NCBI RefSeq assembly: GCF_000196355.1 | Contig: NC_007614.1 | Location: forward strand, 1,620,001-1,652,000 | Direction: 5' to 3' | Source of the DNA: Nitrosospira multiformis ATCC 25196 | Lineage (GTDB): Bacteria; Pseudomonadota; Gammaproteobacteria; Burkholderiales; Nitrosomonadaceae | DNA: 32,000 nt | Shown: positions 20,249-32,000 of the stretch, piece by piece | Layout: each line of letters begins with the position of its first letter | How positions within the stretch are numbered: the stretch's first letter is position 1 | Program-made: the position numbers and the translations under genes | Notes under the pieces: generated by a model | Told to the model about the DNA's origin: nothing | Seen by the model: the letters and a program-made list of their open reading frames with translations, nothing else | Databases searched by the model: none

Positions 20249-20255
20249 GCTAATA
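20249..20255. repeat. 7-bp target-site duplication (GCTAATA) of the left IS481 copy, outer copy
   Basis: GCTAATA lies immediately before TGTAGTAG at 20256. The same heptamer lies immediately after ...CTACTACA at 21478. Confidence 0.85.
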
Positions 20256-21478
20256 TGTAGTAGTCGCGATCCCATCAGACAGTTTCCCGATTTGACTGGT
20301 GCAGTTGTCAGATCAGATTCAACTGTTCAGTAATGTGATTTTATCGTTCCACACCTCCTTTCCGTCAATTAATGTTTGCATGGGTGTTCGCCCGCAGCAC
20401 ATCTTGCCCTGATGAGTGCGGTCGTGATTGTAGTAGTGCAGCCAGTCATCCAGGTCAATTTGCAACTCCTCGATTGATCGGTATATCTTGCGCCGGAACG
20501 CGACCTGGTAGAACTCTTGCAGGATCGTCTTGTGAAAGCGCTCACAGATGCCGTTGGTCTGCGGATGATTGGCTTTGGTGCGAGTATGTTCAATATCATT
20601 GAGCGCCAGATAGAGCTGATAATCGTGAGTCTCTGGCTTGCCGCAATATTCAGTGCCTCGGTCGGTCAGAATTCGGATCAGGCCCATGTCCTGTTCTGCA
20701 AAGAAGGGTAGTACCCGATCGTTGAGCAAATCCGCGCCTGTAATCGGCGTTTTGGTCGTATAGAGCTTGGCTGTGGCCCACTTGGAGTAGGTGTCGACGA
20801 AGGTCTGCTGATAAATACGACCCACGCCCTTGATCGTGCCCACATAGAAGGTATCCTGACTGCCAAGGTAGCCTGAATGGGCGGTTTCCACCTCCCCATG
20901 GGCGACATCGTCGTCCTGCTTCTTCTCCAGGGCACTAACCTGCGCTTCGGTCAGCACTTCTCCAGTCTGCGCGATATGACATTCCAGTGCCGCCAACCGC
21001 TTCTTGAATGATTCCAGGTCCCTGCGCAGCCAGACAGAGCGAACGCCTGAAGGAGAAATGAAGATGCCGCGTTTGCGTAACTCGTTGGAAACGCGCACTT
21101 GCCCGAATGCAGGCTGCTCAAGGGCAAATGCAGCTACCGCCATCTCGACTGCTTCTTCAACTCTATTCTTGGGATTGGGCTTCCTTCGATTGGCATCAAT
21201 CAGGGCATCGATACCACCATTTTCCATCGCTGACTGATACCGATAGAAGGTATCCCGGGAAAAGCCCATCACCTTGCAGGCACGCGATACATTGCCAAGC
21301 TCGGCTGCCAGATTAAGCAGCCCTACCTTGTGCTTAATAACATTTTGTTGAACACTACTCATGGGGTTACTCCTTTGCGCTTTCAGCGCTCAATTTGATA
21401 AAGATTCGCACCTCTATCAAACCGGGTAACCCCGCTTTTCGCAAGGCCCTACTGTCAGATTAAATCTGAACTACTACA
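20256..21478 (-). mobile_element. IS481-family insertion sequence, copy 1 (1223 bp)
   Basis: Ends TGTAGTAGT...ACTACTACA. Imperfect 28-bp terminal inverted repeats match at 21/28 positions by eye. Single DDE transposase ORF. Flanked by a 7-bp direct repeat. Confidence 0.9.
20319..21362 (-). CDS. IS481-family DDE transposase (347 aa)
   Basis: N-terminal HTH (GNVSRACKVMGFSRDTFYRY); integrase-core catalytic region (DTFYVG..., TDRGTEY, HPQTNGICERFHKT). Identical to the protein at 26989..28032. Confidence 0.92.
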   Translation of the reverse strand: MSSVQQNVIKHKVGLLNLAAELGNVSRACKVMGFSRDTFYRYQSAMENGGIDALIDANRRKPNPKNRVEEAVEMAVAAFALEQPAFGQVRVSNELRKRGIFISPSGVRSVWLRRDLESFKKRLAALECHIAQTGEVLTEAQVSALEKKQDDDVAHGEVETAHSGYLGSQDTFYVGTIKGVGRIYQQTFVDTYSKWATAKLYTTKTPITGADLLNDRVLPFFAEQDMGLIRILTDRGTEYCGKPETHDYQLYLALNDIEHTRTKANHPQTNGICERFHKTILQEFYQVAFRRKIYRSIEELQIDLDDWLHYYNHDRTHQGKMCCGRTPMQTLIDGKEVWNDKITLLNS

Positions 21479-21485
21479 GCTAATA
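21479..21485. repeat. 7-bp target-site duplication (GCTAATA) of the left IS481 copy, inner copy
   Basis: See 20249..20255. Confidence 0.85.
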
Positions 21486-21544
21486 TAACCGGTTTGCAAA
21501 CGGCAAGAACAGCCATATCATCATCCGCCTATCCCCTCAGTTTT

Positions 21545-22762
21545 ATGCAATCCGCTGCAAACGCCTGGCGCGATGTGCTGGCAAAGTCCGTGCTATTCTT
21601 TTTTGGGATAGCGCTCTGGTACAAGGGGTTGAGCTTTTATGCCTATTACCTTTTGCCCCTCGCCTGGACGATAGATGGAGGACTGGCCCGCGCTGGAGAA
21701 ACGGTCAGAGAGCCTCTGGCAATCGGCATGCTTCTGTTATGCTTCGTCCTCGCCCTTGGCATACTCTGGAGCGATCATCCTGATCTTGGATTCAAGGTCG
21801 GGCGAAGATATTTTGCCTTTCTCGTTTTTATCCCCTATCTAGGCCTCTTGAATAAGGAACGTCTACCTTGGGCAATCAGTGGAGCGCTCCTGGGTTATTT
21901 TGGCGCACTGCTTATCGGTTTATATCACTGGCTGGTAATGGGCGTACAAGGTATTCCGACTTTGGGGATGCCTTACACCAGTTTCTCTTCGACACTAGGA
22001 ATTGGAGTAATACTGTCTCTCTATATTATAAAAACAAGCAGAAATAATGGAATCCGACTGTTTTTGTGGTTTCTCTCTGCCTTTCTATTGTTCATTCAGT
22101 TTAATCAAGACGCCAGGGGCGCACTTTTAGCAACGCTTTTCTCATCGTTGCTTCTGCTGTTTTTGCTGTATAAAACAAAAACCAAAACCCTTCTGATCGT
22201 GATGACACTGGTGATCACAGTAATCACGTTGTTCGCATCCAATAGTACGAGTTTTCAAGAAAGATTAATGCGAGCGAAGAATGATATTCAGTTATCCTGG
22301 ACAGGAAAATATACAACCAGCTTGGGTTATCGCCTGGCCATGTGGGATGTCGGTCTCCATGGAATAGCCGAGCATCCCTTTGTCGGTCACGGCACGGGAA
22401 CGGCAGCAAGGTATTTCGAGAAAACCGTTGAGACGTATAAAGGGGGTATTTACCGGGATTTAACAGAATTTCACGACACTTATCATTATCACAATGACTG
22501 GATTGAGATCGGAATGCAGTTAGGACTGCTCGGGATGGCGACTTATGCTTTCTTTTTGTGGAGTTGGTATCAAACGCTAAAGAGACATCAACTGATAGTT
22601 CTTGCGGCGGCTTTACTCTGTTTTATTTTTCTGTCCGGCTTAACAGACACTCTGGTTTTTTTTCGACAAACTTTTTACTTGCTTCTTGTAATCACCGCTA
22701 TTGGTATTACCTCTCACAAAGCATCGGAGCGGCTGGACTCTACAAAATATATTACTTCTTGA
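21545..22762 (+). CDS. O-antigen ligase / Wzy_C-domain family polytopic membrane protein
   Basis: About 10 or more TM helices. RGALLATLFSSLLLL loop motif. GHGTGT...HYHNDWIEIGMQLGLLGM is typical of the WaaL/Wzy_C family. The ORF track starts at TTG 21494; the first ATG is at 21545. AT-rich relative to its surroundings. Confidence 0.8.
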   Translation: MQSAANAWRDVLAKSVLFFFGIALWYKGLSFYAYYLLPLAWTIDGGLARAGETVREPLAIGMLLLCFVLALGILWSDHPDLGFKVGRRYFAFLVFIPYLGLLNKERLPWAISGALLGYFGALLIGLYHWLVMGVQGIPTLGMPYTSFSSTLGIGVILSLYIIKTSRNNGIRLFLWFLSAFLLFIQFNQDARGALLATLFSSLLLLFLLYKTKTKTLLIVMTLVITVITLFASNSTSFQERLMRAKNDIQLSWTGKYTTSLGYRLAMWDVGLHGIAEHPFVGHGTGTAARYFEKTVETYKGGIYRDLTEFHDTYHYHNDWIEIGMQLGLLGMATYAFFLWSWYQTLKRHQLIVLAAALLCFIFLSGLTDTLVFFRQTFYLLLVITAIGITSHKASERLDSTKYITS

Positions 22763-22819
22763 GTGATACTGGCAGTTATTGGAGTGGATGATTCAACATT
22801 AAACTGGGATAAGAAGGAA

Positions 22820-23779
22820 ATGACAAGATCGCCGCTACTGTCTGTCGCATTAGCCAGCTTTAACGGAGAACGCTATATTGCTGAGCAGTTGGAAAGTATA
22901 GCTCAGCAGTATAGACTGCCTGATGAACTCGTCATTTCAGATGATGCCTCCACTGATAGCACTACTGATATCGTATTGAGATTTGCGCGGCATGCTCCAT
23001 TCCCCGTGCAACTCCTCGAGCACTCTGAGCGTCTTGGTTCCACACGTAACTTTCAAACGGCTATATGCGCTTGTAATGGTGACATAATCTTTTTATGTGA
23101 TCAGGACGATGTTTGGTATCCAAAAAAGATCGAACTTATTGAAGCAGGTTTTATCGATAACCATAACGCAGGTGCCGTTTTCACCGATGCAGATGTAGTT
23201 GGCGAAAACTTAAACCCATCTGAAATACGTCTTTGGGAAGCTTTTAAATTCAATTCAAAAGAACAAGCACAAATTAATGGTTGCGATGCACTGGAAGTTT
23301 TGTTCAAGCATCCGGTAGTAACAGGTGCGACAATGGCGTTTCGTTCCATTTATCGAGATCTTATTCTACCTTTACCCGATATGTGGCATGACGCTTGGAT
23401 TGCTCTACTTATTGGAGCAACTTCATCCCTAGTGGCATTGCCCACACCATTGATTGCCTATCGGCAGCATAACTCTAACCAACTTGGGATTCCTCGTAGA
23501 GGTAGGAATCGCGGCAAGACTTGCGCAGAAATATATGGACCACAAGTTCTCCATTATGAATTGACTCGAGCGCGTCTCCTCGCGCACGAGAAGCACTTTC
23601 CAGTTTCTAAGCAGAAACTAGAAAAAATGGAGGAATTGCTTATTTTTTTGCGGAATCGCGCTGCTTTACCTCAAAGTCCTTGGCAGAGATTACCGATAGC
23701 TCTAAATGAACTTGCTGCCTTCCGTTATCATCGATATGCATTCGGAACTATCAGTTTTTGGAAAGACTTGCTACGCTAA
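22820..23779 (+). CDS. family 2 glycosyltransferase (GT2)
   Basis: ATG with AAGGAA SD. LSVALASFNGERYIAEQLESI...LVISDDASTDST (GT-A nucleotide-binding), DQDDVWYPKK (DxD region). No C-terminal TM segment. Confidence 0.85.
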   Translation: MTRSPLLSVALASFNGERYIAEQLESIAQQYRLPDELVISDDASTDSTTDIVLRFARHAPFPVQLLEHSERLGSTRNFQTAICACNGDIIFLCDQDDVWYPKKIELIEAGFIDNHNAGAVFTDADVVGENLNPSEIRLWEAFKFNSKEQAQINGCDALEVLFKHPVVTGATMAFRSIYRDLILPLPDMWHDAWIALLIGATSSLVALPTPLIAYRQHNSNQLGIPRRGRNRGKTCAEIYGPQVLHYELTRARLLAHEKHFPVSKQKLEKMEELLIFLRNRAALPQSPWQRLPIALNELAAFRYHRYAFGTISFWKDLLR

Positions 23780-23920
23780 CCATTGCACACCTCTACAAAT
23801 CAAGAATCAATAGGTGTTGCACTGACCGGTTGAATGCGCCGGTACAGTTTATTGGGGTGGGTTTTCCCCCGATTTCACGGACACATCTAAAAAGGCTGAT
23901 AATGAGTCAGGAGGTGTGTC

Positions 23921-24208
23921 ATGGCAACGCGAAGGAAATATGCAGCGGAGTTCAAGCAGGAAGCGGTACAACTAGTTCGGTCTGGCAATGTGCCGGCAAG
24001 CCGGATCGCGCGTGATCTGGGGATTGATCCCAATATGCTGAGCCGGTGGTGCCGGGAAATGGGCTCGGTCGGTAATAAAGCCTTTCAGGGTCAGGGCAGG
24101 CCCCGTGATGAGGAGATGGCTGCGCTCAAACGTGAGCTGATCCAAGTTAGGAAGGAGCGTGATTTTTTAAAAGAAGCGGCGGCGTTATTCGCGAAAGCGT
24201 CGAAATGA
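23921..24208 (+). CDS. IS3-family transposase OrfA (HTH)
   Basis: MATRRKYAAEFKQEAVQLV... is a typical IS3/IS911 OrfA. SD GGAGG upstream. Confidence 0.9.
   Translation: MATRRKYAAEFKQEAVQLVRSGNVPASRIARDLGIDPNMLSRWCREMGSVGNKAFQGQGRPRDEEMAALKRELIQVRKERDFLKEAAALFAKASK
24163..24169 (+). other. candidate programmed -1 ribosomal frameshift heptamer T TTT TTA (followed by AAAAG)
   Basis: The X XXY YYZ heptamer is in the orfA zero frame (GAT TTT TTA AAA G). The -1 frame is open from here into orfB, with no stop between 24163 and 24205. Confidence 0.55.
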
Positions 24209-25047
24209 GATATCGCATGATCGAACGCTGCCGCGATGCCTTCCCCATTCGCCTGATGTGTCGTTGTCTGCATGTATCAACCAGCGGCTACTATGATTGG
24301 CGAGATCGCCCCTTGAGTCAGAGAGCGCATGATGACCGGCGTTTGCTGGAGCGCATCAGGAAGATTCATGATGGCAGCGATGGGGTGATGGGCAGTCCTC
24401 GAGTCTGGAAGGAGTTGCGTTATGAAGGCGAGGCGTGTGGGTTGAACCGCATAGCACGGCTGATGCGCCAGCAGAGGTTGTATGGCATCCCGCAGCGTAA
24501 ACGCTGGCACAAGAAGGTCTGTGGCCTTCGACCGGAGAATGTGCACAATCACTTGCAGCGGGACTTTACAGCAAGTGAGCCCAACAGCCGGTGGGTGACG
24601 GACATAACCTATGTGCGCACTCAGGAAAGCTGGCTTTATCTGTGCGTGGTCGTGGACCTGTACTCGGGCATCGTGGTCGGCTGGTCAATGAGCCACTGCC
24701 AGGATCCGCAACTGGTGCTGCAGGCCGTACTCATGGCGCTTTGGCAGCGTGAGGCAAAAACTCCCGTCATCCTGCACTCAGATCGCGGCTGTCAGTTTAC
24801 CAGTGACGAGTATCAACGCTTCCTGCAAGGACACAATCTGATTTGCAGCATGAGCGCTGTCGGTAGTTGTGCCGACAACGCGCTAGCAGAGAGCTTCTTT
24901 GGCTTGCTCAAGCGGGAGCGAGTATATCGTCGCCAGTATCGAACCCGGGCTGAGGCGCGCACAGATATCTTCGACTATATCGAGCGATTCCATAATCCGC
25001 GAAAACGGCGACAGCTGGAAATGCGTCAGAAGCAGGATTTAGCTTAA
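24205..25047 (+). CDS. IS3-family transposase OrfB (DDE integrase core), probably expressed as an OrfAB fusion
   Basis: WVTDITYV, LHSDRGCQFTS and ADNALAESFFGLLKRE (DDE triad context). It lies in the -1 frame relative to orfA. Confidence 0.9.
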   Translation: MRYRMIERCRDAFPIRLMCRCLHVSTSGYYDWRDRPLSQRAHDDRRLLERIRKIHDGSDGVMGSPRVWKELRYEGEACGLNRIARLMRQQRLYGIPQRKRWHKKVCGLRPENVHNHLQRDFTASEPNSRWVTDITYVRTQESWLYLCVVVDLYSGIVVGWSMSHCQDPQLVLQAVLMALWQREAKTPVILHSDRGCQFTSDEYQRFLQGHNLICSMSAVGSCADNALAESFFGLLKRERVYRRQYRTRAEARTDIFDYIERFHNPRKRRQLEMRQKQDLA

Positions 25048-25227
25048 CCAAACCGTCCGGAGAAATGGGGTAAAACCCGGTAGGGTCAGCTAGTCCAGGT
25101 TTCCACTTTAGAACGGTACTGATTCCAGAGTAGGGTGATCCTGCCCTGACGAAGCCACAGCAATATCAAAACTGTGCTAAACGTCTAGGGATTTTGAGTG
25201 TTTAAGGCATATCCTCAGCCATAACAC

Positions 25228-26802
25228 TTAGGGGGATCCAGAATGCTCTGATAAGATTGTCTTCTTGACTGTATATATTTGATAGATCAGGTTTGGCGAA
25301 TCGTGCAGCATCTCGAAGTTATCCGAGATATATTTATGAATTAGGGGATGTGTATTGCAGAAACGTAACTCCTCCCGCCCATCAAGAGGGAAATCGAATA
25401 TCAGGATAAAACCTGGATTTGTCACCTTGATTCGTTCAATTTCTAGCTGTTGAAAGCTTTCACTTCGCGAGAACAAGGCGTATATCTCCCACATAGGAGA
25501 CTTTCTTTCGAACAGGGGATAAGCTCCCGGCCAGAAAGGAGTTGTGATAAAACTTTGACCATCGGCTGCATACTTAGCAACTAATTTCTTTAATAGACTG
25601 ATCTCACTCGCTGTGCGAGCATCAACAGTCACTTTGGTGTCTGAAATTACGATGCTCACACATTGTTTGCTAGGCCGACATTGCCAGGCGGGATGAAAAT
25701 GCACCATCACTAATAAACTTGACCCACATAACAAAAGTGCCAACGGCCATTTGATCCTCGCTGGTTTTGTGGACAACAGCACTAGGCAACCGACTAATAG
25801 AGGAAAAATGCTTTTAGCAAGATGACTTACATCAGCTCGGGAATAAGCATAATGCGCATAGGGCAATGCCAAGAATGCAGTTGCAACCAAGGCCGATGGA
25901 ACAGCCCGCTTGTGAAATTTCTGGCGAGTAACCCATATGATAGCAAGTACGCCAAAAACGACTATAGCGATGAAAAACAAGCCAACCAGCACTCCACGAA
26001 TCGTCTTACCAATAGATACGGAGTCAAATTCCAAACGCCAAGGCCAAGGAACGGGTAGAGTAAGATTAGTTGCTTTAATTTCAAGGAAAAAGAGCAAGCT
26101 TTCCCAGAAGGCAGGAGCAAAGCCTGGTACCAGCAATATCATGAGAAGTATTGGAATATAACCAATTGCTACTCCTACTGCCCATAGCATAGCCACCTTG
26201 ATAAATTCAAGCTTATCCGCTTGCCTGATGGTCAGCCATATCATAACCCCAAAACTACCTAAGACACCGTATACCCCATGGTTACGGCCAAAAACAGCTA
26301 CAAAACCTACACATAAACCGGTGAAAAAGTAACGTCTCCTTGTAGGGTTCTGCACAAGAAAGGCCAATACTCCAATCAGCAGAATAGATAAAGAGACATC
26401 AAATAATTTGTGGCGTGGATACATCCAGACCACCAATGTGATGGCTGAAAGAAGTAAATAAGGAAAATTTAGCGTTCTTGTATTTCGAGCAATTAACAGT
26501 AGAGCGACGAATAATCCCATCACTTGAAAAACCGCCAAGCTACCCCTTAAGGCCACTATGCCATTGTCTCCCCACAGCCACATGAGTGTAGCGGACCAGT
26601 AGTAACGGCCGGGGTCGTAAGCCATGAAATCGCGGATAGGCACCTCACCTAGCATCACACGTTGAACCCCATACCAAAGAAAACCTTCATCCCATAGTGA
26701 GAATCCTTTATGCCCCTGCCATAGAAAAAGTGCGAGCACAACAAGACTGGAGAAAACCAGTATTTGAAAAACTGGAAGCTTATTTTCTTGGGGTTGATGC
26801 AT
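25228..26802 (-). CDS. polytopic membrane protein, GT-C-like (ArnT/PMT-type) putative glycosyltransferase
   Basis: 524 aa with about 12 or more hydrophobic helices in the first ~390 aa. An acidic first-loop motif (SLWDEGFLWYG...DFMAYDPGRYYW) resembles GT-C first-loop catalytic motifs. Soluble C-terminal ~130 aa. AT-rich. Family assignment is inference. Confidence 0.55.
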   Translation of the reverse strand: MHQPQENKLPVFQILVFSSLVVLALFLWQGHKGFSLWDEGFLWYGVQRVMLGEVPIRDFMAYDPGRYYWSATLMWLWGDNGIVALRGSLAVFQVMGLFVALLLIARNTRTLNFPYLLLSAITLVVWMYPRHKLFDVSLSILLIGVLAFLVQNPTRRRYFFTGLCVGFVAVFGRNHGVYGVLGSFGVMIWLTIRQADKLEFIKVAMLWAVGVAIGYIPILLMILLVPGFAPAFWESLLFFLEIKATNLTLPVPWPWRLEFDSVSIGKTIRGVLVGLFFIAIVVFGVLAIIWVTRQKFHKRAVPSALVATAFLALPYAHYAYSRADVSHLAKSIFPLLVGCLVLLSTKPARIKWPLALLLCGSSLLVMVHFHPAWQCRPSKQCVSIVISDTKVTVDARTASEISLLKKLVAKYAADGQSFITTPFWPGAYPLFERKSPMWEIYALFSRSESFQQLEIERIKVTNPGFILIFDFPLDGREELRFCNTHPLIHKYISDNFEMLHDSPNLIYQIYTVKKTILSEHSGSP

Positions 26803-26865
26803 TTGGTATTATTGTAACGATAATGTTCAGACGAGAGTATGCAGATTGTAATTCCAACCTATAGA

Positions 26866-26872
26866 CTTTATC
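26866..26872. repeat. target-site duplication of the right IS481 copy, inner copy (CTTTATC)
   Basis: CTTTATC lies immediately before TGTAGTAG at 26873, and ATTTATC immediately after ...CTACTACA at 28095 (6 of 7 identical). Confidence 0.7.
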
Positions 26873-28095
26873 TGTAGTAGTTCAGATTTAATCTGACAGT
26901 AGGGCCTTGCGAAAAGCGGGGTTACCCGGTTTGATAGAGGTGCGAATCTTTATCAAATTGAGCGCTGAAAGCGCAAAGGAGTAACCCCATGAGTAGTGTT
27001 CAACAAAATGTTATTAAGCACAAGGTAGGGCTGCTTAATCTGGCAGCCGAGCTTGGCAATGTATCGCGTGCCTGCAAGGTGATGGGCTTTTCCCGGGATA
27101 CCTTCTATCGGTATCAGTCAGCGATGGAAAATGGTGGTATCGATGCCCTGATTGATGCCAATCGAAGGAAGCCCAATCCCAAGAATAGAGTTGAAGAAGC
27201 AGTCGAGATGGCGGTAGCTGCATTTGCCCTTGAGCAGCCTGCATTCGGGCAAGTGCGCGTTTCCAACGAGTTACGCAAACGCGGCATCTTCATTTCTCCT
27301 TCAGGCGTTCGCTCTGTCTGGCTGCGCAGGGACCTGGAATCATTCAAGAAGCGGTTGGCGGCACTGGAATGTCATATCGCGCAGACTGGAGAAGTGCTGA
27401 CCGAAGCGCAGGTTAGTGCCCTGGAGAAGAAGCAGGACGACGATGTCGCCCATGGGGAGGTGGAAACCGCCCATTCAGGCTACCTTGGCAGTCAGGATAC
27501 CTTCTATGTGGGCACGATCAAGGGCGTGGGTCGTATTTATCAGCAGACCTTCGTCGACACCTACTCCAAGTGGGCCACAGCCAAGCTCTATACGACCAAA
27601 ACGCCGATTACAGGCGCGGATTTGCTCAACGATCGGGTACTACCCTTCTTTGCAGAACAGGACATGGGCCTGATCCGAATTCTGACCGACCGAGGCACTG
27701 AATATTGCGGCAAGCCAGAGACTCACGATTATCAGCTCTATCTGGCGCTCAATGATATTGAACATACTCGCACCAAAGCCAATCATCCGCAGACCAACGG
27801 CATCTGTGAGCGCTTTCACAAGACGATCCTGCAAGAGTTCTACCAGGTCGCGTTCCGGCGCAAGATATACCGATCAATCGAGGAGTTGCAAATTGACCTG
27901 GATGACTGGCTGCACTACTACAATCACGACCGCACTCATCAGGGCAAGATGTGCTGCGGGCGAACACCCATGCAAACATTAATTGACGGAAAGGAGGTGT
28001 GGAACGATAAAATCACATTACTGAACAGTTGAATCTGATCTGACAACTGCACCAGTCAAATCGGGAAACTGTCTGATGGGATCGCGACTACTACA
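26873..28095 (+). mobile_element. IS481-family insertion sequence, copy 2 (1223 bp), inverted relative to copy 1
   Basis: Both termini and both untranslated ends are base-for-base identical to the reverse complement of 20256..21478 where checked by eye. All six-frame ORFs of 60 aa or more are identical between the copies. Confidence 0.9.
26989..28032 (+). CDS. IS481-family DDE transposase (347 aa)
   Basis: 100% identical in amino-acid sequence to 20319..21362. Confidence 0.92.
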   Translation: MSSVQQNVIKHKVGLLNLAAELGNVSRACKVMGFSRDTFYRYQSAMENGGIDALIDANRRKPNPKNRVEEAVEMAVAAFALEQPAFGQVRVSNELRKRGIFISPSGVRSVWLRRDLESFKKRLAALECHIAQTGEVLTEAQVSALEKKQDDDVAHGEVETAHSGYLGSQDTFYVGTIKGVGRIYQQTFVDTYSKWATAKLYTTKTPITGADLLNDRVLPFFAEQDMGLIRILTDRGTEYCGKPETHDYQLYLALNDIEHTRTKANHPQTNGICERFHKTILQEFYQVAFRRKIYRSIEELQIDLDDWLHYYNHDRTHQGKMCCGRTPMQTLIDGKEVWNDKITLLNS

Positions 28096-28102
28096 ATTTA
28101 TC
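28096..28102. repeat. target-site duplication of the right IS481 copy, outer copy (ATTTATC)
   Basis: See 26866..26872. Confidence 0.7.
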
Positions 28103-28109
28103 GGAATCG

Positions 28110-28841
28110 TTATTGAGTTACTGGAGGAAGTATTGACGAAGGAAAAAACCTTCTTGCAAATTCCCTCAGATCGATTTCTGTCTCGCCGCCGTCCATGAAT
28201 CGGAATCTCCACACATTCTGTTGCTCGTCTGAATCCAGTTGCAAAGGATCATCTGCCAGCGCCAATCCGCCTTTTTCAAGGATTTCTCTGGCTTTCCTCG
28301 CGTTCCCTGCTAGCAGGGAGTTCAGAGCATCGGGAATTCCCCTTTTCTTCGCTGCATAGGCTTTGTTCATCCAAGGGGCCATTTCTTCCAGAAGGCCATA
28401 TTTCTTGTAAATGTTCGCCATGCGCGTCAGTTCATTCGCATCATCAAGCAGGTTGCCAGCCAACATGCGCTTGGCGATCATTTCATCCGAGGAAATTTGT
28501 GTTGCGGGTTTGCTCAGGCTGGAAAGGCCTCCAGTATCGGCTTCTGCGACAGCAGGTGTTTTCATCAACCCGGTGCTCAGGCCGGGCGTCGGGTAACCGG
28601 GGATAGATGGCTTCTGCTTATCCTGCTGCCATGGAATCGCTATCTCATCGTTGGCGGCACGGAGCCGCTCGCGTTTTTCCCTGTTGAAGTCTGCCTTGTC
28701 GATCCTCGCCCGATGCAACTCCGCCTCGCGCTCATCCGCCTTTTTCAACCGGTTGGCATCCCGCTGCCGGAGCTTCATATCCTGCCCCGTGCGTATACCC
28801 TGTGCAAGGCCGCCAGCAAACGCGCCCAGACTTTCAAGCAT
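28110..28841 (-). CDS. hypothetical phage-like protein (243 aa), last gene of the overlapping operon
   Basis: The start overlaps the upstream gene's end by 8 nt. Charged coiled-coil N-terminal part (KLRQRDANRLKKADEREAELHRARIDKADFNREKRERL). No family recognised. Confidence 0.6.
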   Translation of the reverse strand: MLESLGAFAGGLAQGIRTGQDMKLRQRDANRLKKADEREAELHRARIDKADFNREKRERLRAANDEIAIPWQQDKQKPSIPGYPTPGLSTGLMKTPAVAEADTGGLSSLSKPATQISSDEMIAKRMLAGNLLDDANELTRMANIYKKYGLLEEMAPWMNKAYAAKKRGIPDALNSLLAGNARKAREILEKGGLALADDPLQLDSDEQQNVWRFRFMDGGETEIDLREFARRFFPSSILPPVTQ

Positions 28842-29958
28842 GGTCCCCCTCCCTGTTGTGTTTATTCACTGTCGCCTTGCGCTTCATCAACCCTGAGGCG
28901 ACATTGAGCCGGTGAATGAAATCCTCCCCTACAAGTTCCACCGCTTTTCTGTTGAGTACCGCTTCGCCATTGGATAACCGGATAGGCTGCACGCCTTCAA
29001 TTGAAGCCGGGATGGAATCGCTGGTGCCGGTACCGGGACCTCGTACTATGCCACTGTTCCCATAGCCATCGCGCTTCAATGTGGATAAACCATAGGCATT
29101 GTAGTTCCTGATGACCCCGCCCGTCCGCAGGCCTGGGGTTCTCATCAGGTAAGCTCCGCCCAGGGTGCCGACCAGATTGCCTAACCCGCTGAGTCCTCCC
29201 GCTTTATTCTGCTGCTGTTGCTGCCATGCATTCAGTTGGCCCTGATATTGGTTCAGCATCAGGTTGCCGGAGGAGCTATTCGCACCAAGGGCGCCGTCAT
29301 ACCAGTGTTGCGCCGCATTCATGCCGGCGGTATGCAGCCCTGCTTTCGTTGCCAGGTTGTCAGTGGCGGCGTTACCTGCATTGAGCGCTGCCGCATCGGC
29401 AGCTATTCCCATGGTGGGCATATTACGCCCAAATTGGGCCACGCCCTGCCGCATGGCCATGCCCTGCAATTCTGTCTCGCGTCGGGCCTTATTCATTGCT
29501 CCCGCCGTGTCTTTGGCAAGCCCAAGGCTGATCTCGTGGGTCAGGCCTTGAAACTTGCCTGAATTAGGATTTACTCCCATGCGTCCCATCGTCCGTTGGC
29601 TCGAATCCAGGGCGCTCTCATAACTTTTTGCGATATCCGCTCCTGCCTCGGCCGCCATCTGCTCTTTACGCTCAAGCGAATCGAACTCGTTGGCTTCCCT
29701 CACCATGCGCTCTTCTATCGGCGCAAACAGGTTGCGGTATGCCTGCCATTGCGATTCGGCCCTCGCCGCATTGGCTTCGCCTGAGGCAATCTGCTGATCT
29801 ACAATCTTCTGGATCAGGGGGTCTTGTACCCTGGCTCTGTCCTTCTCCCATTCGAGCTGTTGCTTTGCCACATCCAGTTGCTGCTGGGCGATATCGGCCT
29901 GTTGTTTTGCCGCCTGCCCGATGAGCGGATCCGGTCTTGGTGGCTTCGAACTACACAT
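28834..29958 (-). CDS. phage virion-associated-like protein (coiled-coil N-terminus, Gly/Gln/Asn-rich middle, conserved C-terminal GPGTGTSDSIPA...LSNGEAVL motif)
   Basis: ATG at 29958 with GGAG 7 nt upstream; the track's TTG at 29964 is an alternative. It overlaps the GNAT stop by 8 nt. The composition and C-terminal motif resemble phage internal/tail-associated proteins from my recollection, not verified. Confidence 0.6.
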   Translation of the reverse strand: MCSSKPPRPDPLIGQAAKQQADIAQQQLDVAKQQLEWEKDRARVQDPLIQKIVDQQIASGEANAARAESQWQAYRNLFAPIEERMVREANEFDSLERKEQMAAEAGADIAKSYESALDSSQRTMGRMGVNPNSGKFQGLTHEISLGLAKDTAGAMNKARRETELQGMAMRQGVAQFGRNMPTMGIAADAAALNAGNAATDNLATKAGLHTAGMNAAQHWYDGALGANSSSGNLMLNQYQGQLNAWQQQQQNKAGGLSGLGNLVGTLGGAYLMRTPGLRTGGVIRNYNAYGLSTLKRDGYGNSGIVRGPGTGTSDSIPASIEGVQPIRLSNGEAVLNRKAVELVGEDFIHRLNVASGLMKRKATVNKHNREGDHA

Positions 29959-30565
29959 TTTCAATCTCCAGTATTTTGGTCAATCCATTTTCTACGTGCC
30001 TGTAGCCGAGCAATCTGAAAAACCGTGCGGCCTTATTAACTGTCTTTACGGTAATGTTGATTTCCCGGACGCCTAGCAATTTCATGGCATTCTCGACATA
30101 CCTTACAAAACGCTTGGCAGTAGTGCCGCGTCGCGCCTCGGGCAAAAGATACAGCGTGTCTTCCGTGGCAATAAGTGTCTGCGTGTGAGCGCTCTTATCC
30201 AGATACATGGCGCAATTGCCCAGCAACTTTCCTTCGCTTCTTACGGTAAAAAGAAGGTAGCGGCCCGCCTGCTCATACCGGATAAAAGTCTCGTAATCCG
30301 GCTGGAACGGTAGCCGATGTCTGTGTCCTTCGGTTTCATTCCAGTGGGTGCGATGCAAATGCTTTATTTCTTCTGTAATGTCCTCAATACGCTCTACAGC
30401 GAATACTATGCGGCCGTTATATCGAGGCTTGATTTGGGCAATATCTCTCGATTGCGCAAGCGTTTCCATGCGGTAGGCGGCAACGCAGATATCCGCGGCC
30501 AGCTCAGATGTCAAGGTCAAGCCCATATTTCCCTTGAGCAGCGAAATCAGTTCAATATTCATCAT
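29951..30565 (-). CDS. GNAT-family N-acetyltransferase (204 aa)
   Basis: ATG at 30565 forms an ATGA overlap with the upstream stop. GNAT core: LYLLPEARRGTTAKRFVRYVENAMKLLGVREINITVKTVNKAARFFRLLGYRHV (acetyl-CoA-binding motif A region and following helix/strand). Confidence 0.75.
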   Translation of the reverse strand: MMNIELISLLKGNMGLTLTSELAADICVAAYRMETLAQSRDIAQIKPRYNGRIVFAVERIEDITEEIKHLHRTHWNETEGHRHRLPFQPDYETFIRYEQAGRYLLFTVRSEGKLLGNCAMYLDKSAHTQTLIATEDTLYLLPEARRGTTAKRFVRYVENAMKLLGVREINITVKTVNKAARFFRLLGYRHVENGLTKILEIENV

Positions 30566-31998
30566 CCATCCATACGTGAAATAAGCTGTTCGAGAGAATC
30601 GCGAACAGAATTTATGTACGCATACAATGCCTCGCATTCAGCCTGGGTGGGGGGAGCGGAGAATGTAAGCGCACGAAAGGCGGGAAGCGCTATTCGGTTT
30701 CCGCGTCGTCCGGTCAGTATCTCAAGCATGGTTTTGAGCCATGGAGGTGTTCCGACCGGAATGCCAGGCTTCTTGATATAGGTTGCTTCAGCAGGTTGGC
30801 TGAAAAGCGCGGATTCAATCACAACCCCGTCACTTATCGCTTCTGCGCTTGCTTTATTGATTTGGATGCAAAAAGTGGCGGAAAGAATGTGTATCTGGGT
30901 AATTACGCCCGTTCCGCCAGCATTGGCTTGCATGGAGGGCGTCCCGACAAGCGTGCCACTGCCGATGGATATGGGGAGGGCATCGCCTGCGTTAGATTGC
31001 GCCAAGCCTGCTTCAATCAGGATATGAGTTTGCGTGATTGCGCCGCCTGGCAATATCTTCCCCTGGGCCAATGCGCCCATGCTGAGCATGTGCGCCTGAC
31101 TTACTTTCCCCGTGCTCAAGGTTCTGGCCGGCGCAACCAGGGCGCCCGCCAGGGCAATACCTCTGGTAACGCCGGCAGCGCTACCCAGGTTGGATTGAGC
31201 GAGGGAAGCGCCCGCAAGAATTTGATCCTGCTCGATCTTGCCCGTACTGGCGCCACCTGCCTGTGTTAATCCCGCAACAGCGAGCGTGTGATGTTGAGCA
31301 ATTTCTCCGGTGCTGCCCCTATTTGCCTGTATTGCAGCTACACCGCTTAATCCGGGTCCTGTATCAGCAGGCCACAGCTTTCTTGCAGATGCCTTGAATA
31401 GCTGCCATGGATTTTCATGAAAAGCCCGTGACTCAGCCGCTCCCCAGACTGAATCGGCAAAGCCGGCTATCAGTATCGTGCCGTCAAATTCCCATAGATT
31501 CCCACCGACGTACCGTCCAAGGTTGAAATTCTTGTTCCCCGCTCCCCAGGCTACCGGGGAACTTGTCCAGGTCAACCCGGCCTCTTTCCCATCGAGAAAA
31601 ACTTTGCACGTCGCTGCCGTACCCCCCGATACGAAAACGATACTCCGGCTTTTTGTGTTGAACCATGAAGAAAGGGTGCCGGAACTGGCGCCATTGGAAC
31701 CGATAGCTACTCTTAAGTCTGGATAAACCTGGTATGCGAAAGCATTGGGAGAAGAAGCCCCGAAGGGGCAGTGACCATAAGTATCGGGCCCACCCACAGT
31801 GGGGCACCACATAAAGAAGGTGCCGACATTGCCGGTCAGTTCCGGATAGCCGGTATAGGCGTAATAGTCATCGGCCCCATCAAACGAAAACACCTTGCCA
31901 TTTTGTGCTGGAACAATTGACGCATTGCCGCCCGCTGCCCAGCTTCGCCCGGTAACCAGATCGACCGGCCCCGCGGCAGGATTCCATAATATCCGCAT
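30562..31998 (-). CDS. LamG/ConA-like lectin-domain protein with repeat-rich C-terminal half (putative phage host-recognition / fibre protein)
   Basis: N-terminal ~200 aa match the Laminin_G_3 pattern (VFSFDGADDYYAYTGYPEL...GTFFMWCPT...VFLDGKE...NFNLGRY...FDGTILIAGFADSVW). Eight 22-aa repeats follow. The ATG at 31998 is 2 nt from the window edge, so the true start may lie outside the window. Confidence 0.7.
   Translation of the reverse strand: MRILWNPAAGPVDLVTGRSWAAGGNASIVPAQNGKVFSFDGADDYYAYTGYPELTGNVGTFFMWCPTVGGPDTYGHCPFGASSPNAFAYQVYPDLRVAIGSNGASSGTLSSWFNTKSRSIVFVSGGTAATCKVFLDGKEAGLTWTSSPVAWGAGNKNFNLGRYVGGNLWEFDGTILIAGFADSVWGAAESRAFHENPWQLFKASARKLWPADTGPGLSGVAAIQANRGSTGEIAQHHTLAVAGLTQAGGASTGKIEQDQILAGASLAQSNLGSAAGVTRGIALAGALVAPARTLSTGKVSQAHMLSMGALAQGKILPGGAITQTHILIEAGLAQSNAGDALPISIGSGTLVGTPSMQANAGGTGVITQIHILSATFCIQINKASAEAISDGVVIESALFSQPAEATYIKKPGIPVGTPPWLKTMLEILTGRRGNRIALPAFRALTFSAPPTQAECEALYAYINSVRDSLEQLISRMDG
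30820..31350 (-). repeat. eight tandem ~22-aa (66-nt) degenerate repeats within CDS 30562..31998
   Basis: Residues 217-393 parse as LSGVAAIQANRGSTGEIAQHHT / LAVAGLTQAGGASTGKIEQDQI / LAGASLAQSNLGSAAGVTRGIA / LAGALVAPARTLSTGKVSQAHM / LSMGALAQGKILPGGAITQTHI / LIEAGLAQSNAGDALPISIGSGT / LVGTPSMQANAGGTGVITQIHI / LSATFCIQINKASAEAISDGVV. Confidence 0.8.
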
Positions 31999-32000
31999 TC

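What the first reader, a model, noticed from the sequence alone, without database searches (positions are those of the whole stretch)
26803..28112. Removing the IS481 copy puts the GT-C-like gene ~77 nt downstream of, and co-oriented with, the phage-like operon
Delete copy 2 plus one copy of its target duplication. The stop codon of the last phage-like gene (28110-28112) then lies about 77 nt upstream of the start (26802) of the AT-rich GT-C-like gene on the same strand.

This is the classic position of lysogenic-conversion or moron genes. Surface-glycan modifiers lie immediately distal to tail/tailspike genes in P22-like, epsilon15-like and Sf6-like phages.

The hypothesis is that the glycan genes began as a phage-borne serotype-conversion module. 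The IS481 insertion then uncoupled that module from phage late transcription.
Basis: inference. Interest (0 to 1): 0.68.

Follow-up and report, generated by a model that had tools for sequence, protein, structure and literature searches.

The report
IS481 insertion between phage remnant and glycan gene
A jumping gene recently landed in the 77-base gap between the last gene of an old, inherited phage remnant and a sugar-transferase gene in Nitrosospira multiformis; the original side-by-side arrangement is real, but the sugar genes look like an ordinary variable cell-surface locus, not cargo brought by the phage.

Summary
A 1,223-bp IS481-family element (26873-28095) with a 6-bp target duplication sits in a 77-nt spacer between the stop of a phage-derived gene (28110) and the start of a GT-C-fold glycosyltransferase gene (26802), both on the minus strand. 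IS-free Nitrosospira multiformis strains Nl12 and Nl7 carry the uninterrupted junction (66-78 nt). The window equals the Nl12 arrangement plus three IS insertions.

The "phage-like operon" is the end of a ~23-kb late-gene-only cluster. It has a P22-like portal and Bcep22-like virion proteins. It occurs in 21 Nitrosospira/Nitrosovibrio species, diverges in step with chromosomal flanks and is under purifying selection. No integrase or early genes were found where the left side was examined.

Its last gene is a shortened version of a 435-aa gene. In an intact relative prophage that gene is followed by a 2,278-aa virion gene and no glycan genes.

The glycan genes form a low-GC, strain-variable cassette, mostly convergent on the phage genes. 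GT-C is adjacent in only 3 of 21 species. The family sits in ordinary O-antigen clusters elsewhere and is absent from 50,697 phage genomes. The most likely reading is a variable chromosomal glycan locus fused to a truncated, domesticated prophage.

The parts
20256..21478 (-). IS481-family element, copy 1 (transposase 20319-21362). It has a 7-bp target duplication TATTAGC at 20249-20255 and 21479-21485. It lies 15-66 nt upstream of the Wzy_C start.
   Evidence: Identical 1223/1223 to copy 2. The empty site is seen once in Nl12 and Nl7. NCBIfam NF033577 scores 274.7 bits against a cutoff of 224.
21364..21560 (+). Rfam psRNA2 (RF02349) match 1. It is the outward-facing strand of the IS481 left end and runs into the Wzy_C 5' region.
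   Evidence: 129.3 bits against a gathering score of 65, model positions 1-201.
21494..22762 (+). Wzy_C-domain protein (O-antigen ligase/polymerase-like). The first ~175 codons are conserved and have host-like GC (50.3%). The rest is cassette-variable (41.9% GC).
   Evidence: Pfam PF04932 E 2.4e-21. It is 90% identical to Nl12 throughout, but against Nl18 it is ~93% over the first ~175 residues and then ~58%. GC values.
22763..23779 (+). Family-2 glycosyltransferase, 43.7% GC.
   Evidence: PF00535 E 5e-22. Only generic GT2 hits in PHROGs and NCBIfam.
23781..25140 (+). IS3-family element (orfA 23921-24208, orfB 24205-25047) inserted between the convergent GT2 and GT-C genes. Boundaries are approximate.
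   Evidence: rve and HTH_21 domains. Absent in Nl12, a remnant in Nl7, and a 525-nt fragment directly after the p243 homolog in Nl18.
25228..26802 (-). GT-C-fold integral-membrane glycosyltransferase (524 aa, 44.0% GC) with an invariant WDEG motif at residues 37-40.
   Evidence: AF2 pLDDT 81, pTM 0.83. The 12 best Foldseek PDB hits (E<=4e-3) are all GT-C enzymes: DPY19, AftA, ALG12, AglB/STT3. Invariant D38 and G40. No Pfam, NCBIfam or PDB sequence hit.
26803..26872 (-). Distal 70 nt of the ancestral spacer, including one target-duplication copy at 26867-26872.
   Evidence: Aligns to the uninterrupted spacer of Nl7 and Nl12. No promoter or terminator consensus.
26797..26987 (-). Rfam psRNA2 match 2. 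It is the outward-facing strand of the IS481 left end and reads into the GT-C start codon.
   Evidence: 128.2 bits. Model positions 1-115 match the IS end almost perfectly; positions 116-201 align poorly to the flank.
26873..28095 (+). IS481-family element, copy 2 (transposase 26989-28032). This is the insertion described in the finding.
28097..28109 (-). Second target-duplication copy (28097-28102) plus the proximal 7 nt of the spacer.
28110..28841 (-). p243, the last gene of the phage-derived cluster. It is a shortened homolog of a 435-aa late gene of an intact relative prophage.
   Evidence: BLASTP E 3e-18 to the N-terminal ~265 aa of L095:15553-16860. Present in 19 of the 21 species loci; the other two contigs end just before it. 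45-93% identity. dN/dS 0.15-0.20.
28834..29964 (-). p376, a virion structural protein (Bcep22 gp70-like).
   Evidence: phrog_8003 E 1e-94. tblastn hits in 71 phage records. dN/dS 0.05-0.12.
29951..30637 (-). GNAT acetyltransferase (Bcep22 gp69-like position). The likely start gives ~203 aa.
   Evidence: PF00583, phrog_1249. Synteny.
30562..32000 (-). 3' 478 codons of a 506-aa gene, the most divergent gene of the cluster (possible receptor-binding protein). It continues beyond the window.
   Evidence: L002 extension. 32-57% identity across species against 65-80% for its neighbours.

Best explanation
Copy 2 of a 1,223-bp IS481-family element transposed recently into a 77-78-nt intergenic spacer of Nitrosospira multiformis. 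It was a simple insertion that made its own 6-7-bp target duplication.

Before the insertion, the spacer joined two things that had long been neighbours but probably have different origins.

(a) The first is p243, the truncated last gene of a ~23-kb late-gene-only podovirus remnant. The remnant encodes a spanin-like protein, TerS, TerL, a P22-like portal, capsid, adaptor, fibre, internal virion proteins, GNAT, p376 and p243. It is inherited vertically across Nitrosospira/Nitrosovibrio and kept under purifying selection.

(b) The second is a GT-C-fold glycosyltransferase gene at the near edge of a low-GC, strain-variable surface-glycan cassette (GT-C, GT2, variable part of Wzy_C). This cassette is exchanged by recombination between two conserved anchors: the 3' end of p243 and the 5' third of Wzy_C.

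Shown: the insertion, the ancestral junction, the phage ancestry, the GT-C fold, the co-divergence and the cassette breakpoints.

Inferred: the glycan cassette is a chromosomal variable locus that became welded to the prophage when the distal prophage end was lost, rather than phage cargo. In the GT-C-bearing lineage, read-through from p243 into GT-C was possible before the IS arrived. The IS now either blocks that read-through or replaces it with outward transcription from its left end.
For: - Insertion and empty sites.
- Phage ancestry and gene order.
- Vertical inheritance: synonymous divergence of p376, GNAT, p506 and p243 against Nl18/Nl7/Nl12 is 0.13-0.44, matching TonB and DUF1264 at 0.23-0.35. 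dN/dS is 0.05-0.32.
- Across species, p376 is 73-77% identical against 73-76% for TonB in syntenic loci.
- The 15 late genes are mostly intact in 16 genomes.
- No integrase or early genes lie within 10 kb to the left in Nsp13, Nl5 and one MAG.
- Truncated end: p243 equals the N-terminal 60% of p435. The intact Nv4 prophage continues with a 2,278-aa virion gene (phrog_14770 E 1e-184), then a second Mu-like prophage, with no glycan genes. Bcep22 continues with gp74 and a giant gp75.
- Cassette behaviour: homology to Nl18 stops 27 nt before the p243 stop and resumes inside Wzy_C.
- GC steps from 50.3% to 41.9% within Wzy_C.
- GT-C synonymous divergence to the Nv4 and C-128 orthologs is only ~0.8. 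p376 against Nv4 (2.9) and TonB against Nsp8 (1.7) are far higher.
- GT-C is adjacent in 3 of 21 species loci.
- The GT-C family lies in non-phage O-antigen clusters and a phage-free Nitrosospira locus. It has no homolog in phage or plasmid collections.
Against: - A glycan cassette of some kind abuts p243 in about 13 of 14 loci with enough downstream sequence. The far flank varies: sm153-TonB, DsbD/HMA, GGDEF-EAL, PBP, PepSY/RND.
- The one Nitrosospira-like contig with sm153-TonB but no phage cluster also lacks the cassette. This linkage is what a 'cassette belongs to the element' model predicts.
- A convergent glycan operon at the end of a P22-like late region also recalls P22 gtrABC (from my own knowledge).
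- Neither att sites nor the true ends of the element could be defined.
- The left part of the cluster in the window's own strain could not be read: its genome is masked, and an IS3-family element interrupts the cluster at L002:1-265.
- Only one intact relative prophage was available as an outgroup.
- The promoter and terminator scans are consensus-based only.
Confidence: 0.58

Rival explanations
1. The glycan genes are the terminal cargo (a serotype-conversion module) of the prophage. GT-C was co-transcribed with the late operon, and the IS481 insertion uncoupled it.
For: - Adjacency, co-orientation and a 66-78-nt spacer free of promoter or terminator consensus in IS-free strains.
- A glycan cassette abuts the cluster end in about 13 of 14 loci whatever the far flank is.
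- Both are absent together at the sm153-TonB site of L100.
- The cluster has a P22-like portal and an Sf6-like TerS, and phages of that type carry conversion genes at that end (from my own knowledge).
- The cassette has low GC.
Against: - The end of the cluster is a truncation. The intact relative and Bcep22 continue with a giant virion gene, and the intact relative carries no glycan genes.
- No integrase or att was found.
- GT-C is adjacent in only 3 of 21 species loci and is inverted and distal in C-128.
- Wzy_C and GT2 are convergent on the phage operon.
- The GT-C family is absent from 50,697 phage genomes and from viral contigs other than one over-extended provirus call.
- Cassette synonymous divergence is decoupled from that of the phage genes.
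- No GtrA-like flippase gene is evident in the cassette ORF list, and the GT2 gives only generic GT2-domain hits, not a specific GtrB match.
Confidence: 0.22
2. This is not exclusive of the best explanation. The two IS481 copies do not silence the glycan genes. Instead they supply outward transcription from their left ends into GT-C and Wzy_C, rewiring the expression of both glycan transcription units.
For: - Both copies have the same (transposase-proximal) end facing a glycan gene start, at 70 nt and 15-66 nt.
- Rfam sRNA family psRNA2 matches the outward-reading strand of exactly this end in both copies, at 128-129 bits.
- Both ORFs remain intact. The same sequences recur in independent assemblies of the strain.
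- Outward promoters are known for Bordetella IS481 (from my own knowledge).
Against: - No sigma-70 consensus lies on the outward strand.
- Only model positions 1-115 of psRNA2 match, so the family may simply be an IS end mistaken for an sRNA.
- I could not retrieve the paper behind the family.
- The shared orientation has a 1-in-4 chance expectation.
Confidence: 0.3
3. The two inverted IS481 copies form a composite transposon that delivered the 5.4-kb glycan segment next to the phage genes, so the adjacency is secondary.
For: Identical inverted copies bracket 21479-26872.
Against: - Each copy has its own matching target duplication: TATTAGC for copy 1 and TTTATC for copy 2. The outer flanks do not match each other.
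- IS-free Nl12 and Nl7 have the same gene order with single empty sites.
Confidence: 0.02

Closest known systems
Prophage serotype-conversion modules (P22 gtrABC, Sf6 oac, epsilon15 and D3 polymerase/inhibitor genes)
   Same: Surface-glycan genes lie directly beyond the distal end of a P22-type late region. Most are transcribed toward the late operon. They have low GC and vary between strains.
   Different: - No integrase or att was found.
- The phage end is a truncation inside a virion gene.
- The intact relative prophage lacks glycan genes.
- No GtrA was seen and no specific GtrB match was found.
- The GT-C family was not found in sequenced phages.
- The cassette is exchanged independently of the phage genes.
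Hypervariable LPS/O-antigen loci between conserved flanks (for example the Xanthomonas etfA-metB LPS locus, PMC2238763; E. coli galF-gnd from my own knowledge)
   Same: - A low-GC central cassette lies between conserved anchors.
- Recombination breakpoints fall in the flanking genes.
- Wzy/ligase-type genes and glycosyltransferases are present.
- There are multiple IS insertions and strain-to-strain replacement.
   Different: One of the two conserved anchors is a phage-derived gene. The cassette is small (3-7 genes). The glycan made is unknown.
IS481 family insertion sequences (Bordetella IS481 as type member)
   Same: A single DDE transposase ORF, ~1.2 kb, TGT... terminal inverted repeats, a short target duplication and several identical copies per genome.
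   Different: The target duplications are 6-7 bp of AT-rich sequence, not the NCTAGN of Bordetella IS481. The left end is catalogued in Rfam as an sRNA (psRNA2).
Bcep22-like podophages (Lessievirus) and Ralstonia GP4-like phages
   Same: They share the order internal virion protein, acyltransferase, gp70-like virion protein. p376 is 32-38% identical over 47-74% of its length.
   Different: The Nitrosospira cluster is ~23 kb of late genes only. It lacks gp73, the full-length gp74 and the giant gp75-type gene. It is chromosomally fixed.
Gene transfer agents and domesticated prophages (RcGTA type)
   Same: Late-gene-only cluster, no integrase or replication genes seen, vertical inheritance with the host, purifying selection.
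   Different: The ancestry is podovirus-type. The cluster includes TerS and ejection proteins. Some copies carry broken genes. Particle production or DNA transfer has not been tested.

Membership tests
IS481 family insertion sequence | DDE transposase matching the family model above its curated cutoff | tested here: met
   NF033577 scores 274.7 bits against a cutoff of 224. rve and HTH_29/32 domains.
IS481 family insertion sequence | About 1.0-1.3 kb, single ORF, terminal inverted repeats | tested here: met
   1,223 bp with one 347-aa ORF. The terminal 9 nt are perfect inverted repeats, and about 21 of the first 30 positions match.
IS481 family insertion sequence | Short target-site duplication, with the empty site present in relatives | tested here: met
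   TTTATC for copy 2 and TATTAGC for copy 1. Single copies of each site are seen in Nl7 and Nl12.
Phage moron / lysogenic-conversion module | Lies inside the boundaries of a prophage (between att sites, near the integrase) | tested here: inconclusive
   No integrase or early genes were found in 10 kb of left flank in three genomes, and no tRNA in the seven loci scanned. The ends of the element could not be defined.
Phage moron / lysogenic-conversion module | Sits at a natural gene boundary or end of the phage genome | tested here: not met
   p243 is a shortened homolog. The intact relative and Bcep22 continue with 435-532-aa and giant virion genes.
Phage moron / lysogenic-conversion module | Autonomous transcription unit with its own promoter and terminator | tested here: not met
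   No promoter or terminator consensus lies in the 66-78-nt spacer. The scan is consensus-based only.
Phage moron / lysogenic-conversion module | The gene family occurs in phage genomes and travels with the phage genes | tested here: not met
   No tblastn hit in 50,697 phage records. GT-C is adjacent in 3 of 21 species loci. Synonymous divergence is decoupled.
Gtr-type three-component glycosylation system | GtrA flippase plus GtrB-type Und-P-sugar synthase plus GT-C transferase | tested here: inconclusive
   GT-C is present. The GT2 gives only a generic N-terminal hit to the GtrB-like PHROG (E 1.4e-5, residues 26-126). No GtrA-like small membrane ORF was identified, but small ORFs were not searched systematically.
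GT-C fold glycosyltransferase | Multi-helix membrane domain structurally similar to solved GT-C enzymes | tested here: met
   AF2 pLDDT 81.4, pTM 0.83, with 16 helices in residues 9-369. Foldseek probability 1.00, E 7e-5 to 6e-4, TM 0.4-0.5 to DPY19, AftA, ALG12 and AglB/STT3.
GT-C fold glycosyltransferase | Conserved acidic motif in the first extracytoplasmic loop | tested here: met
   D38 is invariant and E39 at least 90% conserved (WDEGFLWYG) in 35 homologs of 59-91% identity. The topology of the loop is inferred.
GT-C fold glycosyltransferase | Uses a polyprenyl-phosphate-linked sugar donor | not testable with these tools
   Biochemical.
Hypervariable O-antigen/LPS-type locus | Variable low-GC genes between conserved anchors, with breakpoints inside the anchors | tested here: met
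Gene transfer agent / domesticated prophage | Late-gene-only cluster, vertical inheritance, purifying selection | tested here: met
   Some copies have broken genes (g678 in Nl18, p243 in Nl7, several in L038).
Gene transfer agent / domesticated prophage | Produces particles that package host DNA | not testable with these tools
   Experimental. The only lead is a citation of prophage induction in N. multiformis 25196 (Choi 2010, as listed in PMC11849493).

The most novel reading that the evidence does not exclude
The 'phage-like operon' is the distal end of a ~23-kb late-gene-only podovirus cluster. The cluster has been kept intact, at a largely syntenic site, under purifying selection across Nitrosospira/Nitrosovibrio. 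It would be a domesticated phage or GTA-like particle system in ammonia oxidisers. Its truncated end is permanently joined to the genus's hypervariable surface-glycan cassette, about 2 kb from the cluster's own fastest-evolving gene (the fibre-like p506). On this reading, particle specificity and the cell-surface receptor evolve as one linked module, and IS481 insertions switch the glycan genes.
Probability: 0.25. Interest if true: 0.7.

Novelty: new member of a known kind. Interest (0 to 1): 0.35.

Why it matters
As stated, the finding is an ordinary event: an IS hop into the leader of a glycan gene beside a cryptic prophage.

It matters in two modest ways. First, it shows how surface-glycan variation in a soil nitrifier is generated. 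Cassettes are swapped between a phage-derived anchor and a Wzy_C anchor, and three IS insertions are layered on top. This bears on phage adsorption and strain typing now that Nitrosospira phages are being isolated.

Second, it exposes a genus-wide, selectively maintained late-gene phage cluster that has not, as far as I could find, been described. That cluster could be tested as a GTA-like system.

Tried and rejected
- Composite transposon: rejected by separate target duplications and IS-free relatives.
- Inversion between the IS copies: rejected because each copy keeps matching duplications.
- Promoter and terminator scans of the spacer in the window and in Nl12 found nothing. An RNA fold of the reconstructed junction shows no hairpin followed by a U-run.
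- JUMPstart/ops motif GGCGGTAG: the 3 matches all lie inside the IS copies or the sm153 gene, not in the glycan leaders.
- Sequence-based annotation of GT-C found nothing in Pfam, NCBIfam, PHROGs or a PDB profile search. Only the fold search worked.
- p243 has no family hits and no phage tblastn hit.
- tRNA or att search found none in seven loci or L180.
- The window's own genome could not be extended. The species-representative scan returned no 100% match, so the region is apparently masked. The draft contig L002 adds only 1.3 kb and ends in an IS3-family element.
- The metagenome scan with the TonB receptor mostly returned 45-52% paralogs from other genera. Only L100 was informative.
- An apparent 3.8-kb ORF-free stretch in L095 was an artefact of ORFs running off the locus. 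It is a 2,278-aa gene.
- Literature: nothing on this locus, on a Nitrosospira GTA or on psRNA2 in the searchable library.
- P0104 context lookup failed.
Full report
OBSERVATION

The window comes from Nitrosospira multiformis. All 21 related loci from the species-representative scan are Nitrosospira or Nitrosovibrio.

On the minus strand, a 243-aa ORF (p243) ends at 28110 and a 524-aa ORF starts at 26802. Between them lies a plus-strand 347-aa transposase ORF.

The mobile element is 26873-28095, 1,223 bp. It is 1223/1223 identical to an inverted copy at 20256-21478. Its ends are TGTAGTAGT...ACTACTACA. Its transposase passes the NCBIfam IS481 cutoff (274.7 bits against 224).

Copy 2 is flanked by TTTATC. 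Copy 1 is flanked by a perfect 7-bp TATTAGC. Removing copy 2 and one duplication leaves a 77-nt spacer.

IS-free relatives carry both empty sites. Strain Nl7 (L033/L008) has a 78-nt spacer and strain Nl12 (L034) a 66-nt spacer. TATTAGC occurs once at the copy-1 site in both strains.

A blastn comparison shows the window is colinear with Nl12 at 88-91% identity. The only differences are three insertions: IS481-2, an IS3-family element at about 23781-25140, and IS481-1. A composite-transposon origin and an inversion between the copies are both excluded.

WHAT THE TWO NEIGHBOURS ARE

The upstream genes are phage-derived. p376 matches phrog_8003 (virion structural protein) at E 1e-94. It also hits Bcep22-like and Ralstonia GP4-like podophages, where the same acyltransferase-then-gp70 order occurs.

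In relatives the genes further upstream are:
- a spanin-like gene, small and large terminase, and a P22-like portal;
- a major head protein, an SU10-type adaptor and a tail-fibre protein;
- an endolysin-like protein and a 678-aa internal virion protein.

In the window's own strain a draft contig (L002) extends the window by 1.3 kb. It shows the 144-aa and 127-aa cluster genes, a conserved strong terminator, and then an IS3-family element inserted in the intergenic region.

The downstream gene has no Pfam, NCBIfam, PHROG or PDB sequence hit. An AlphaFold model built from 35 homologs has pLDDT 81 and pTM 0.83. It finds only GT-C enzymes among its 12 best PDB matches: DPY19, AftA, ALG12 and AglB/STT3, the top ten at E 7e-5 to 6e-4. 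An invariant WDEG motif lies near the N-terminus. 'GT-C-like' is therefore right.

IS THERE A PROPHAGE, AND OF WHAT KIND?

The cluster occurs in 21 species-level genomes with the same gene order.

Within N. multiformis, synonymous divergence of the phage-like genes is 0.13-0.44. That equals the values for the flanking TonB-receptor and DUF1264 genes (0.23-0.35). dN/dS is 0.05-0.32.

Across species, p376 is 73-77% identical and TonB 73-76% in loci that keep the order cluster, glycan cassette, small protein (sm153), TonB. Fifteen late genes are mostly intact in 16 genomes, though a few copies have broken genes.

In three genomes the 10 kb to the left of the small terminase holds no integrase or early genes. 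It holds a 190-aa gene, a Bor-like lipoprotein gene and an FAD-binding oxidoreductase gene. No tRNA genes were found in the seven loci scanned.

This is an old, vertically inherited, late-gene-only remnant, not a P22-style temperate prophage.

Nitrosovibrio Nv4 also carries an intact relative with early genes (NinB, a DNA methylase, DUF1376). In that prophage the p243 homolog is 435 aa. p243 aligns to its N-terminal ~265 residues at E 3e-18. The 435-aa gene is followed by a 2,278-aa giant virion gene (phrog_14770, E 1e-184), then by a Dam methylase and Mu-like baseplate genes of a second prophage. No glycan genes are present.

Bcep22 likewise continues with gp74 (532 aa) and a giant gp75. The right end of the Nitrosospira cluster is therefore a truncation point, not a natural phage genome end.

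THE GLYCAN SIDE

The cassette is Wzy_C (21494-22762, +), GT2 (22763-23779, +) and GT-C (25228-26802, -). Only GT-C is co-oriented with the phage genes.

GC is 42-44% in the cassette. It is 50% in the first 525 nt of Wzy_C and 54-57% in p243 and p376.

Strain Nl18 has a different cassette: a 387-aa protein, a GT4 and a Wzy_C. Homology to the window stops 27 nt before the p243 stop. It resumes inside Wzy_C, where the first ~175 residues are ~93% identical and the rest ~58%. This is the signature of cassette replacement between two conserved anchors.

GT-C follows p243 in only 3 of 21 species loci: Nl7, Nl12 and Nv4. In N. briensis C-128 it heads a six-gene glycan operon that converges on the phage genes from 7 kb away.

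N. briensis Nsp8 has a family member at a phage-free locus. In Pseudomonas and Polaromonas, homologs of 62-65% identity sit in ordinary O-antigen clusters. The family has more than 1,600 members. It has no tblastn hit in 50,697 phage genomes or in the PLSDB plasmids.

GT-C synonymous divergence to the Nv4 and C-128 orthologs is about 0.8. p376 against Nv4 (2.9) and TonB against Nsp8 (1.7) diverge far more, which indicates inter-species exchange of the cassette.

EVIDENCE THAT CUTS THE OTHER WAY

Some glycan cassette abuts p243 in about 13 of 14 loci with enough downstream sequence, although the far flank differs. The one Nitrosospira-like metagenome contig with sm153-TonB but no phage cluster also lacks the cassette.

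This tight linkage fits a model in which the cassette belongs to the element. A single ancient fusion followed by co-inheritance explains it equally well. I weight the host-locus model at about 0.58 and the cargo model at about 0.22.

CONSEQUENCE OF THE IS

No promoter or terminator consensus lies in the spacer. Read-through from p243 was therefore possible in GT-C-bearing strains, and the IS now separates the two genes by 1.2 kb of antisense transposase sequence.

However, Rfam family psRNA2 (RF02349) matches the outward-reading strand of the IS left end in both copies at 128-129 bits. In each case it points into the adjacent glycan gene: GT-C for copy 2 and Wzy_C for copy 1. Only model positions 1-115 (the IS part) align well. 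This may mark outward transcription from the IS, or an IS end catalogued as an sRNA. It needs 5'-RACE to settle.

VERDICT

The finding itself is a new member of known kinds: an IS481 insertion, a variable O-antigen-type locus and a cryptic prophage. The more interesting by-product is the genus-wide, selectively maintained late-gene cluster joined to the variable glycan cassette.

Noticed in passing
window 21364-21560 (+) and 26797-26987 (-): Rfam sRNA family psRNA2 (RF02349) matches at 128-129 bits. The match is the antisense of the 115 nt between the IS481 transposase ATG and the IS left end, plus poorly aligned flank. The family therefore looks IS-derived. In both copies it reads outward into a glycan gene.
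   Followed up: partly
L032-L053, L059-L099 (relatives); window 28110-32000: A ~23-kb late-gene-only podovirus cluster is present in 21 Nitrosospira/Nitrosovibrio species. Its synonymous divergence equals that of the host flanks and dN/dS is 0.05-0.32. No integrase or early genes lie within 10 kb to the left. It is a candidate domesticated phage or GTA-like system.
   Followed up: partly
window ~23781-25140; L033:13964-14458; L032:11861-12382: An IS3-family element sits between the convergent GT2 and GT-C genes. A remnant lies at the same place in Nl7. A 525-nt fragment of the same IS lies directly after the p243 homolog in Nl18, which hints that IS3-mediated deletion removed GT-C there.
   Followed up: partly
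window 20256-28095: Both glycan transcription units now start 15-70 nt from the same (left) end of an IS481 copy. The two identical inverted copies bracket the 5.4-kb cassette like a potential composite transposon, although they inserted separately.
   Followed up: yes
L002:340-372 (about window 32970-33000 equivalent); L006:6864-7022: A conserved strong intrinsic terminator (GCGAGCCGCCCCTGTTCGGGCGGTTTTTTTTT) separates the 678-aa internal virion gene from the last six cluster genes. In the window's strain a second IS3-family element is inserted just upstream of it.
   Followed up: partly
window 30562-32000; L034:7883-9403: The 506-aa gene is by far the most divergent gene of the cluster (32-57% across species against 65-80% for its neighbours). 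Only its C-terminal ~70 residues are shared with the intact Nv4 prophage. This is receptor-binding-protein-like behaviour, and the gene lies about 2 kb from the variable glycan cassette.
   Followed up: partly
window 25228-26802 against L045:12435-14006 and L053:10001-11554: GT-C synonymous divergence to the Nitrosovibrio Nv4 and N. briensis C-128 orthologs (~0.8) is far lower than that of p376 against Nv4 (2.9) or TonB against Nsp8 (1.7). This implies inter-species transfer of the glycan gene.
   Followed up: partly
L018/L040:12553-17538: In Nitrosospira sp. Nsp1 the position after p243 is occupied by a 1,661-aa helicase-methylase fusion (type ISP restriction-modification-like) instead of glycan genes.
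   Followed up: no
L059:3649-6965; L063:3652-6962; L098:14272-18086: There are tandemly duplicated gene pairs (a 292-aa gene plus a 245-aa polysaccharide-lyase-domain protein) between the portal and capsid genes of the cluster in several strains.
   Followed up: no
L180:1-6267: In Nitrosovibrio Nv4 the intact podophage relative abuts, tail to tail, a Mu-like myophage module (Gp44-48, baseplate J, gp53-like fibre, Dam methylase). This explains the 99.7-kb provirus call.
   Followed up: no
L094:3503-4027; L098:7079-7492: A weak Lambda_Bor-like lipoprotein gene and a conserved 190-aa gene lie on the opposite strand at the left border of the cluster. They may be leftover phage accessory genes.
   Followed up: no
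L100:1-8768: A Nitrosospira-like metagenome contig has sm153-TonB preceded by Ada, AlkB and PEP-CTERM genes, with neither the glycan cassette nor the phage cluster.
   Followed up: partly
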